In this document: one piece after another, positions 31,796 through 61,318 of the stretch
Layout: each line of letters begins with the position of its first letter
Numbering within the stretch: the first letter of the stretch is position 1
The notes under the pieces: generated by a model
What the model was told of the DNA's origin: nothing
The model's input: only the letters and a program-made list of their open reading frames with translations
Databases searched by the model: none
Source of the DNA: Eledone cirrhosa
Taxonomy: Eukaryota
DNA: 64,000 nucleotides
NCBI GenBank assembly: GCA_964016885.1
Contig: OZ024740.1
Location: 120,714,001-120,778,000, forward strand
Direction: 5' to 3'
Made by a program: the position numbers and the translations under genes

Positions 31796-32255
<460 letters not shown>

Positions 32256-54334: not shown

Positions 54335-54919
54335 GAGATAGGTTATAGTATTAGCTATATTCCCATTTGCTCACATTTACTCACTAAATGAGAATATGGT
54401 ACGAAATATTATCGAGCAAAGCTGTCTCAGAATGCTAACTTAGTGTATATTCGTAATGTGGCGTTACCACACGTACGTCTGCATACGTGTTTCTGCCAGT
54501 GCAAAAAGTTACAAACAATGCAATTTGCAGCTTGCCGAAAACTGATACTGCGTTGGCTTCATCAGCAGACACTGAATTATGGAGAGAGAGAAGAAAGTTC
54601 GTTCTAACTCTTTGAACGTGTAAGATAAATTAATGATTTGACAGTGTTGTCTGTAGGAGGCAGTGACGTCATGTGAGGGAAAATGGTCTTTCTTTCGCCA
54701 TAGGATAGTGGTGGAAAGCGGGAACATTTGAAATCGAATATATTTCAGTTAATCTTGGGTGGGGTTTGATGTTTTTTTTCTAATTTATTCTTTTATTAAT
54801 TCTTTTATTCTGCTAATGGTTTCACTTCTTTCCTGGGACACTCTCTTCAAGAGATGTAGTCCATCACATCAGCCCATGTAAATGTAACAGTACAGAGGAC
54901 CTCCTCAGCAGAATCAATT

Positions 54920-56657
54920 AGTGCAACAAAAACAAAAACCTATCTAACTGCGTAATAGGTAGTATGGACGTGGTATCAATATACCCATCCATTAACATTG
55001 ATTTTGCTGTACTAACAAATGTGATTTAGAATGTAGCACAATGGAAAGCATCCAGCAGATAGCTAACTCCATACACCAGAGTATAACTGTAACTATTGAC
55101 TTCCCTTAAAAACACCCAAACAATAGACTACCTGTATTAGACACGGAACTCTGGATTAAAACTATAGACGAGAGGGCCCAAATTCTTCACTCACACTACG
55201 CTAAACCCATGGCCTCCAAATACCTGATAATCAAAACCTCAGCAATGTCCAGTAGTGCTAAGTTTAATATTCTGATAGCAGACTTGGTAGGAGTGATGAA
55301 GAACGTATCCCGCATATGCGACCCAACAAAAATGGAAAGACACATCCAACACTTCGTCAACCGCATGCAGTTCTCTGGTTACAATCAAAGAGACAGAATC
55401 AGAGTATACAAAGTATACCACGGAGAAGAATAAGACCCTAATGGAACTGGACATGAAAGGAATTTGCCCATTATACAGGAGCAAATCATGGAATAGCTTA
55501 GACAGGACTAAACATAAGATAGGGAAAGCCACCTCATGGTACGACAACCAGAGATACCAGTGTGTCATGTTCGTGGACGCTACCCCTGGAGGGAAATTAG
55601 CTAACCAGTGTAGAAAGGCCCTGAGAAAGACCCACTTAAAGATTAAAGTGGTAGAAAAGCCAACAACTACCATAAAATCCGTGATCAGCAAAACATACCC
55701 TTTTCACAAAACCCACTGTACTAATAGGAAATGCGTTATATGTAAAGTAAACCCCCAGATAAACTGTAAAACTAGAAACATAGTCTATAGCATAAGATGT
55801 ACAGAGGGTACTTGCAGAAACATGACAACAACATACATAGGCGAGACAGCTCAAAGCATAGGAGAAAGGATAGGCCAACACTGGGGGGAATTAAAAGGAC
55901 GAAAACAAAACGGTTCAGAACTATACGAACACGCCAGACAACAACATGACGGTAACATAGACAACATAGAAATTAAAATAATATCTAACATAGAAATGAC
56001 CCAGCAGATAGGCAAATAAGAGCGGCAAGCGAAATAGAGCTTAGAAGGCCAAAGTTAAACGGAAAAAATGAATCGAATAACAACAACACCCAAACAAACA
56101 ATACTGACTTAATATAAATATAAATAAATAAATAAATAAATATATATATACACAAGCACAATAACAACAAACACATATAAACACACACTAGTAAACTAAG
56201 ATAGAATACAATAACCAAAATACAGTCACCCAAACGCGAACACACACCAAACACTATACACACACGCAAACGCATGCGCAGAGAAGAAGCGAAATATAAA
56301 TAAATAAACAAACAGATAAAAGAAAAATGGCGTAGACATACAATACAATAGGAGGAACATAATAGTACACTGATGATGTTGCATATGTGCAACGAAGGAA
56401 CTTGTTAGACTATATATGTGTGTTTATATCTATATTATATCTGTATTTTTGACCGTTGGTCAGTCAATGGTAAACATTGAGGACCAAATGAATTAACTGC
56501 GGAGATATAAAAGATATAGAAGCGAAAACCAACCCAACAATGAGTGTGTTCTGTTATTATTTCTGGCAATACTATTACAACAATATGACCCTCCCCAAGT
56601 ATAACAATATTTGTTTCGACACACGATTTCATATCAAAAACATCGAAAAGCAAATTC
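54920..56657 (+). mobile_element. Penelope-like element (Naiad/Neptune-type), internally deleted: RT remnant, GIY-YIG endonuclease and pseudo-LTR with degenerate HHR (56367-56405)
   Basis: IGSMDVVSIYPSI; LPVLDTELW; HYAKPMAS; Cys-rich linker CTNRKCVIC...C; NIVYSIRC...YIGETAQSIGERIGQH...YEH...H. The 3' end abuts (CA)n. Confidence 0.92.
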
Positions 56658-56665
56658 ACACACAC

Positions 56666-59851: not shown

Positions 59852-59945
<94 letters not shown>

Positions 59946-60022
59946 TGGTAGCTAAGATGCTTCCATAGGTGGTATGCCGGTTGAGCACTCTATGCTCTTA
60001 CAGAGCAGAGTATGATAGAATA

Positions 60023-60252
60023 GAAAACGAAAAATCAGTGATGCGTCCGAAGTCAATTTATTGTGTGTTACAATTGTTTCGCCGGCGGACAGCTCGAGAC
60101 GCGATCATTGTGTGGATCTGTCTGATTCTGGACCCGCAGGTTCGACGGACACGTCTAATGATTTCGGAGCATATGCGGGTCCAGAATCATACAGATCCAC
60201 ACAATGATCGCGTCAATAAATTGAGTTCAGATGCATCACTGATTTTTCGTTT

Positions 60253-60254
<2 letters not shown>
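60023..60254. mobile_element. Fold-back palindrome with a degenerate HHR on the minus strand
   Basis: 60023-60138 pairs with 60174-60254. The right arm lacks the ~34 bp segment carrying GAAACAATTGTA. Confidence 0.85.
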
Positions 60255-60334
<80 letters not shown>

Positions 60335-60339
<5 letters not shown>

Positions 60340-61009
60340 TATGTACACGTACATACATATATGTATTGTCACTGTTGAACAAACGAGCAACGATGGTTGC
60401 TGGACACTACGGCTTAATACGGGATGTTTGTTTACAAAAACACCGAGCATTATAATAAATGTTCGGTGAATCCATACGTACATATATATAGGTGTGCATG
60501 TATGTATATATATATACATACTACTGTACGTCTGTATACATATATGTATGTACGTGTACATACTTATATTTAAGTAACAGCCGTACTAAGAGTGGGAAAT
60601 GAAATTTCGCTTCATTTTTTCCGTTTATCGTTTTCGGTGCACCCGGCTGATTAACCCACTCGATATGCAAATTGTGCTACTCAGCCGTTAATATGCATAA
60701 GGTAAGTATATACGTTCAACAATCTGCCAGGAAGGTATACGTTGCTGACGATAGCTAATAAGCTTGAAACTAGTACAGCGTTCCTTTGTCAGTGTTGAAC
60801 AAACGAGCAACGATGGTTGCTGGACACTACGGCTTAATACGGGATGTTTGTTTACAAATACACCGAGCATTATAATAAATGTTCGGTGAATCCATACGTA
60901 CATATATATATGTGTGCATGTATGTATATATATATATATATACATAGTACTGTACGTCTGTATACATATATGTATGTACGTGTACATACTTATATTTAAG
61001 TAACAGCCG
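60335..61009 (+). mobile_element. HHR element: inverted stub plus 1.5 tandem units (420 bp period)
   Basis: 60366-60583 is repeated at 60786-61009. 60335-60366 is the reverse complement of ~60535-60566. Confidence 0.9.
60739..60781 (+). ncRNA. Minimal type I hammerhead ribozyme (GUA site)
   Basis: ACGTTG-CTGACGA-t-AGCT aata AGCT-t-GAAA-CTAG-TA-CAGCGT. Confidence 0.9.
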
Positions 61010-61154
61010 TTTATATATATATATTTAAAGGTTAAACAAGGTTAAATGAATCAATCAATGAATAACGTTTTACAATAGATTAGAAGCACTCCACAGGGAA
61101 TGCCATGACTGAATTTTAACCATCTACTTAGTCAAGGTATGTCATGCATCATCT

Positions 61155-61221
61155 TATTTTATCTGATGAGGACGTACTGTTGAAGATAGCTCAGTACCTC
61201 TGAAATATGTATAATAAAATA
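61155..61221 (+). ncRNA. Type I hammerhead ribozyme
   Basis: TATTTTAT-CTGATGA-GGAC GTACTG...CAGTAC CTCT-GAAA-TATGTA-TA-ATAAAATA. Confidence 0.75.
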
Positions 61222-61274
61222 TACTTGATCACCCGAATGTCTATTTTCGTTAATATTTTGAATTAATATTCCAA

Positions 61275-61318
<44 letters not shown>

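What the first reader, a model, noticed from the sequence alone, without database searches (positions are those of the whole stretch)
60335..61009. 420-bp ribozyme monomer in 1.5 copies starting at its own cleavage site
Seen: an intact minimal HHR between two direct repeats, a first repeat beginning just 3' of the equivalent cut, and an inverted stub in front. Relatives at 24.1-25.1 kb and 32.0-32.3 kb are also inverted. The monomer carries internal TA/TATG tracts, so it creates new targets for further insertions, as seen at 24451. This would be a self-reinforcing nesting cycle (inference).
Basis: partly seen in the sequence, partly recalled or inferred. Interest (0 to 1): 0.7.

Follow-up and report, generated by a model that had tools for sequence, protein, structure and literature searches.

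The report
Two-armed Penelope-type hammerhead repeat insertion
This is one shortened copy of a 420-base non-coding repeat with a predicted self-cutting RNA motif, present some ten thousand times beside TA microsatellites and likely pasted in by Penelope-like retrotransposon enzymes; the kind of element is already known, and copies do not as a rule start at the cut site or pile up inside each other.

Summary
The anatomy is real: an inverted stub (60335-60366), then 1.5 copies of a 420-bp unit with one minimal type I hammerhead (predicted cut after 60775). The exact 31-nt hammerhead occurs 10,046 times in the genome. Copies form tandems and head-to-head pairs, with 3' ends at two fixed sites 59 nt apart that run onto (TA)n. 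This is the footprint of a non-autonomous Penelope-like element (non-LTR retrozyme), a published class.

This copy starts 11 nt past the cut; 96 of 110 informative passes cross the cut and none stops exactly at it. Only 1 of 348 internal tract passages clearly holds a nested Penelope-type end.

The notable feature is a pairing rule: head-to-head insertions carry one tail-less and one tailed end in 43 of 45 callable cases, and 9 of 9 in an autonomous family. Units within an insertion are often mosaic, which argues against one monomer circle as the sole template. No helper element and no RNA data were found. The scan reported this family and the two-end pattern before on other DNA (e1-8665316).

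The parts
60257..60334 (.). (CT)19(TA)n tract; left target flank
60335..60366 (-). Inverted 5'-truncated arm ending at site A (tail-less end, unit position about +218) on the TA tract
   Evidence: 32/32 reverse-complement match; end type
60366..60584 (+). First direct repeat; starts at +11 from the predicted cut; holds two short internal TA tracts
60571..60628 (+). Tail: the 59 nt between end site A and end site B, intact in the first unit
   Evidence: family ends; loose TA ends behind 60628 in run contigs
60585..60785 (+). Part of the unit present once at this locus (distal tail, hairpins, hammerhead)
60739..60781 (+). Minimal type I hammerhead: 6-bp stem I, 4-bp stem II with U.U at its base, palindromic 2-bp stem III; predicted cut after 60775
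   Evidence: 10,046 exact 31-mers genome-wide
60786..61010 (+). Second direct repeat
61007..61024 (+). Right end: likely a site-B end with 40 nt of the tail lost between two CCGT words, then (TA)5 (inferred)
   Evidence: sequence; compare normal B ends
24070..25133 (.). Older relative, head-to-head (B end left, A end right), with a 2 x 310-bp hammerhead element nested in its internal TA tract at 24451-25062
32012..32252 (.). Older relative, head-to-head (B-type end left, A end right)

Best explanation
This is one 5'-truncated, two-armed copy of a young, non-coding 420-424-nt hammerhead repeat family that is likely mobilised in trans by a Penelope-like (PLE) reverse transcriptase/GIY-YIG endonuclease. 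Shown: tandem units, variable 5' ends, two fixed 3' ends (A at +218, B at +277) that run onto (TA)n, and one A plus one B end in head-to-head copies. Inferred: the enzyme, probably as a dimer, nicks both strands of a TA tract. One nick primes reverse transcription inside the RNA at site A and the other at site B, and both cDNAs run towards the RNA 5' end until they are joined head-to-head. Here the A arm ran only about 35 nt, while the B arm ran 1.5 units across the hammerhead and stopped at +11. The template is inferred to be a multi-unit RNA in which the hammerhead is mostly uncut at the time of copying. Long arrays were often extended later at the DNA level (inferred).
For: Ends: 43 A+B, 1 A+A and 1 B+B among 45 callable pairs, out of 68 head-to-head pairs in 135 loci; 22 have an end at neither site and 1 is at a locus edge (p 3e-11). 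A second sampling from junction lists gave 24 of 25 A+B (partly the same loci). Genome-wide exact junction counts: 4,681 A and 4,127 B. TA tract of 8 nt or more at 147 of 182 3' ends against 9.7% background. An autonomous 1,238-aa RT+GIY-YIG family in this genome has its own hammerhead and two ends 60 nt apart, and 9 of 9 callable inverted pairs are A+B (5 more not callable). The two arms of one insertion are closer to each other than to other copies (median 3.1% vs 5.2%, 34 pairs, p 2e-6). Published: partial tandems, inverted 5' copy and a tail at one end (PMC8557442, PMC3846280, passages); two internal RT start sites bounding the tail, both strands cut and extended, hammerhead cleavage not needed in vitro (PMC11167929, parts 1-2 of 4).
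Against: No autonomous element sharing sequence with the unit was found, so the helper is unidentified. The tail is 59 nt against 30-40 nt in the papers read. 22 of 68 pairs have an atypical end, including this copy's own right end. Only 15 of 57 single-armed copies have a TA tract at the 5' flank, which simple insertion into a tract does not explain. The units of the two arms fall into no clean register. No strand-biased A>G signature of an RNA stage at rare sites (53 vs 46).
Confidence: 0.82

Rival explanations
1. Rolling-circle retrozyme: dimeric hammerhead cleavage releases a ~422-nt monomer that circularises, and the enzyme copies this one circle round and round from both DNA ends.
For: Some insertions have identical units in both arms (L263: 11 segments sharing 7 non-CpG variants, none private; L255, L266). 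The unit folds strongly (z -7.4 against 60 shuffles). Circular RNAs are shown for other animal retrozymes (PMC7229834, passages).
Against: 15 of 27 insertions with three or more segments are mosaic, and in 8 of 21 two-armed ones a non-CpG variant carried by only some units occurs in both arms. One monomer circle cannot give that without template switching or later gene conversion. Identical units are equally expected from a homogeneous source array. Minimal PLE hammerheads cleave poorly in vitro (PMC4209133, parts 1-2 of 4).
Confidence: 0.3
2. One reading: cleaved RNA defines the 5' end of insertions, and the internal TA tracts feed a self-reinforcing nesting cycle.
For: 2.2-fold excess of 5' ends in +2..+21; nested insertions at window 24451 and in L082; 8 of 348 internal tracts have expanded.
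Against: 96 of 110 passes cross the cut and none stops at +1. 1 clear and at most 10 possible interruptions in 348 internal passages. Tracts flanking the family are not significantly enriched for further insertions either (16 of 177 vs 52 of 851, p 0.18).
Confidence: 0.1
3. A satellite-like repeat spread by DNA-level processes, with inversions from fold-back repair at its palindromes.
For: Arrays of 13-24 or more units and alternating dimer periods point to DNA-level expansion (L264, L267, L262, L061). The unit is rich in palindromes.
Against: Thousands of dispersed copies with two fixed 3' ends, variable 5' ends and strict A+B pairing shared with a coding PLE.
Confidence: 0.05

Closest known systems
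Metazoan non-LTR retrozymes (Cervera and de la Pena 2020, PMC7229834, passages; Li, Clavereau and Pollet 2026, 10.64898/2026.07.22.740005, parts 1-3 of 5)
   Same: Non-coding tandem unit of a few hundred bases with one type I hammerhead per unit, thousands of copies, proposed to be a non-autonomous PLE derivative.
   Different: The hammerhead is of the minimal PLE type with U.U at the base of stem II; most copies are short, truncated and often head-to-head; this locus has only one hammerhead; circular RNA is untested.
Insertion units of endonuclease-positive PLEs (Craig et al. 2021, PMC8557442; Arkhipova et al. 2013, PMC3846280; passages), including non-autonomous Chlamys derivatives such as MRC1
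   Same: Partial tandem, inverted 5'-truncated copy, tail at one end only, (TA)n bias.
   Different: No ORF; tail of 59 nt; here the one-tailed-end rule is counted (43 of 45).
Poseidon element PAc of the green anole (Frangieh et al. 2024, PMC11167929, parts 1-2 of 4)
   Same: Two internal RT start sites downstream of the hammerhead bounding the tail; AT-rich target; both strands extended.
   Different: In vitro, start sites did not differ between strands in bulk; pairing within one event was not reported in the parts read.
Minimal PLE hammerheads (Cervera and de la Pena 2014, PMC4209133, parts 1-2 of 4)
   Same: Short stem I, palindromic stem III that would need a dimer.
   Different: Stem II is only 4 bp and lacks the conserved G10.1-C11.1 pair.

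Membership tests
Non-autonomous endonuclease-positive PLE | Partial tandem (pseudo-LTR) with variable 5' truncation | tested here: met
Non-autonomous endonuclease-positive PLE | Adjacent inverted 5'-truncated copy | tested here: met
   68 head-to-head pairs in 135 loci
Non-autonomous endonuclease-positive PLE | [quoted passage not shown] | tested here: met
   43 of 45 callable pairs A+B; 59 nt rather than 30-40
Non-autonomous endonuclease-positive PLE | Microsatellite or AT-rich target | tested here: met
   147 of 182 3' ends on (TA)n
Non-autonomous endonuclease-positive PLE | Hammerhead upstream of the 3' ends | tested here: met
Non-autonomous endonuclease-positive PLE | Sequence shared with the pseudo-LTR of an autonomous partner | tested here: inconclusive
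   none found in 120 loci from two PLE protein searches, a GIY-YIG search and a hammerhead pattern search; these sample only the top hits
Metazoan non-LTR retrozyme | Tandem non-coding units each with a type I hammerhead (two or more in a row) | tested here: met
   met by the family (56 distinct full units); this locus itself has one hammerhead; only TA-derived long frames cross the unit
Metazoan non-LTR retrozyme | Canonical hammerhead with loop 1-loop 2 tertiary contacts (2020 definition; the 2026 preprint also admits minimal forms) | tested here: inconclusive
   minimal architecture, no Rfam hit; tertiary contacts not modelled
Metazoan non-LTR retrozyme | Self-cleavage of the RNA | not testable with these tools
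   needs an in vitro assay
Metazoan non-LTR retrozyme | Expressed as monomer-length linear and circular RNA | not testable with these tools
   no RNA holder listed

The most novel reading that the evidence does not exclude
PLE integration is an obligately asymmetric double-priming reaction: in one event the two cut target strands are handed to different start sites on the RNA (A and B), for non-coding passengers and coding elements alike, and the template is often a mixed multimer rather than one monomer circle. The inverted repeats and the one-sided tail of PLEs would then be one mechanism, testable by pairing both junctions on single molecules in the existing in vitro system.
Probability: 0.5. 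Interest if true: 0.6.

Novelty: new member of a known kind. Interest (0 to 1): 0.33.

Why it matters
The element class is published, so the locus itself is ordinary. Its value is as a high-copy, young record of how Penelope-like enzymes integrate. The near-strict one-A-one-B rule turns a qualitative remark in the literature (tail often at one end only) into a sharp prediction. The mosaic units bear on the assumed circular-RNA route of animal retrozymes. My six searches showed no paper counting this rule or describing a cephalopod retrozyme, but subscription papers and all supplements were unseen.

Tried and rejected
Rfam scan: no hit. RNA: no RNA holder listed; four contig runs were laid and show only presence, in two further coded organisms as well. 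Helper search: PF26215 is not in the library. Two PLE protein searches, a GIY-YIG search and a degenerate hammerhead pattern gave other families and older relatives but no coding element sharing the unit's sequence. The first hazard estimate (19 ends in +1..+21) was inflated by alignments breaking at the unit boundary; nine breakpoints were corrected. The first structure string misplaced stem III and was redone. Empty-site search in held loci was mostly uninformative; two insertions in non-TA sites (L057, L106) have no TA tract, which argues against obligatory new TA synthesis (read by eye). Classical twin priming with the first cDNA blocked at the second start site: inner junctions do not cluster near A or B (by eye). 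RNA-editing scar, a lead from e1-8803865: the A>G excess (90 vs 55) rests on two lineage markers; rare sites give 53 vs 46. A putative splice donor 45 nt before the hammerhead is not kept in older subfamilies. A 22-bp match at 56056-56077 to a coding PLE fragment is antisense and was not pursued further. Rows dropped before counts: overlapping fetches of one locus, and three segmental duplicates.

Full report
Observation. The window lies in a 3.0-Gb, TA-microsatellite-rich animal genome; the organism was not determined. At 60335-61014 there is a 32-bp inverted stub, then 1.53 copies of a 420-bp unit. One minimal type I hammerhead lies at 60739-60781, with the predicted cut after 60775. Rfam has no hit and the isolated fold is unremarkable. 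Nine natural variants from three families keep all three stems, with 97% of cells paired and 8 of 12 pairs changed on both sides. The base of stem II is U.U in this family, not the G-C reported as conserved (PMC4209133), so 'intact' is a prediction.

Family. The exact 31-nt hammerhead occurs 10,046 times and a downstream 21-mer 7,676 times. I examined 135 non-redundant loci: 25 from the best BLAST hits and the rest taken by position along contig C1 from the two pattern lists, plus a few refetched wider. 49 of 56 distinct full units are 418-427 nt, and 53 cluster at 96% identity. Copies range from fragments to arrays of 24 or more units. Two further coded organisms hold related sequence.

Ends. 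3' ends fall at two sites, A (+218 from the cut) and B (+277), each running onto (TA)n: 147 of 182 ends have 8 or more nt of pure TA, against 9.7% of background positions. Exact junction counts are 4,681 for A and 4,127 for B. Of 68 head-to-head pairs, 45 have both ends callable: 43 A+B, 1 A+A, 1 B+B. Pairing the first listed junctions over 69 Mb of C1 gave 24 of 25 A+B (partly the same loci). Unpaired arms end at B 43, A 31, other 11 times. The two older relatives in the window are also A+B. This copy has an A stub on the left; its right end reads best as B with 40 nt lost between two CCGT words (inferred).

Comparison with a coding element. [quoted passage not shown] Its site B has the same TAT|CGT context, and 9 of 9 callable inverted pairs are A+B, with 5 more uncallable (read by eye). 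It shares no sequence with the unit, so it is a mechanistic model, not a shown helper.

Start at the cut. This copy starts at +11. After correcting nine breakpoints, 14 of 110 passes end within +2..+21, none at +1, and 96 cross the cut. The rate is 2.2 times the rest (one-sided p 0.006, uncorrected), but +64..84 and +106..126 are similar. The stretch is also the 3' strand of a long predicted hairpin around the hammerhead, where an RT could stall without cleavage. A minor share of cleaved templates is not excluded.

Nesting. The 24451 case is real. In the sample, 322 of 348 internal passages are intact and 8 only expanded. Of the other 18, read by eye, 3 are intact, 1 is a false anchor, 4 are junctions or deletions, and 10 break at or near the tract; only one (L082) clearly holds a Penelope-type end. 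Flanking tracts abut another known end in 16 of 177 cases and unrelated tracts in 52 of 851 (p 0.18). About 15,000 units against some 3 million tracts (extrapolated from this window) cannot drive a feedback loop through internal tracts. These comparisons are not age-matched.

Template. The arms of one insertion are more alike than unrelated copies (34 pairs), so they come from one event. Of 27 insertions with three or more segments, 12 show no partly shared non-CpG variant and 15 are mosaic; in 8 of 21 two-armed ones a partly shared variant occurs in both arms. That fits multi-unit or switched templates, or later gene conversion, better than a single monomer circle, though young identical arrays (L263) fit either. 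Alternating dimers in L262 and L061 look like later DNA-level expansion. No editing bias at rare sites.

Mechanism. Inferred: trans-mobilisation by a PLE protein that cuts both strands of a TA tract and primes internally at A on one strand and B on the other. Internal two-site initiation, extension of both strands, a predicted dimer and dispensable hammerhead cleavage are shown for PAc (PMC11167929, parts 1-2 of 4). A tail at one end, inverted copies and microsatellite bias are described in PMC8557442 (passages and section 11) and PMC3846280 (passages). The retrozyme class and its PLE origin are in PMC7229834 (passages) and 10.64898/2026.07.22.740005 (parts 1-3 of 5). PMC4209133 was read in parts 1-2 of 4. 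No supplements were read; they may list related families.

Verdict. A real new member of a known kind. Earlier notes of this scan, consulted after my own counts, describe the same family and the two-end pattern; my mosaic-unit count qualifies their circular-template reading.

Noticed in passing
window 61030-61275: 3' end of another hammerhead family (core at 61163) running onto (TA)n, directly right of the finding; relatives at window 4359 (-) and L071.
   Followed up: partly
window 59945-60256: Another high-copy repeat with inverted arms, ending on the (CT)n(TA)n tract into which the finding is inserted; no hammerhead seen by my scan.
   Followed up: no
window 54900-56660: Decayed coding PLE fragment (RT thumb, GIY-YIG, pseudo-LTR end on (CA)n), sister to the young 1,238-aa family.
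   Followed up: partly
L180:1853-5566: Young autonomous Neptune/Nematis-type PLE, about 4.07-kb tandem unit, 96-97% identical copies (47,099 first-look candidates), N-rich N-terminal insert.
   Followed up: partly
window 21900-22070: Head-to-head pair of hammerhead-like cores (21933 -, 22036 +).
   Followed up: no
L178 (-), L026, L078, L206: A homologous ~467-nt hammerhead family with the same layout, G-C at the base of stem II and a 75-nt tail.
   Followed up: partly
single-armed copies across the sample: Only 15 of 57 5' flanks carry a TA tract against 147 of 182 3' flanks; target loss or insertion at tract edges is unexplained.
   Followed up: partly
L263, L265, L266, L255: One haplotype (38G 182G 255A 408C) marks near-identical arrays: a very recent lineage.
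   Followed up: partly
L288, L293, L297, L298: Much older (68-80%) relatives of the unit with a different hammerhead stem II and III.
   Followed up: no
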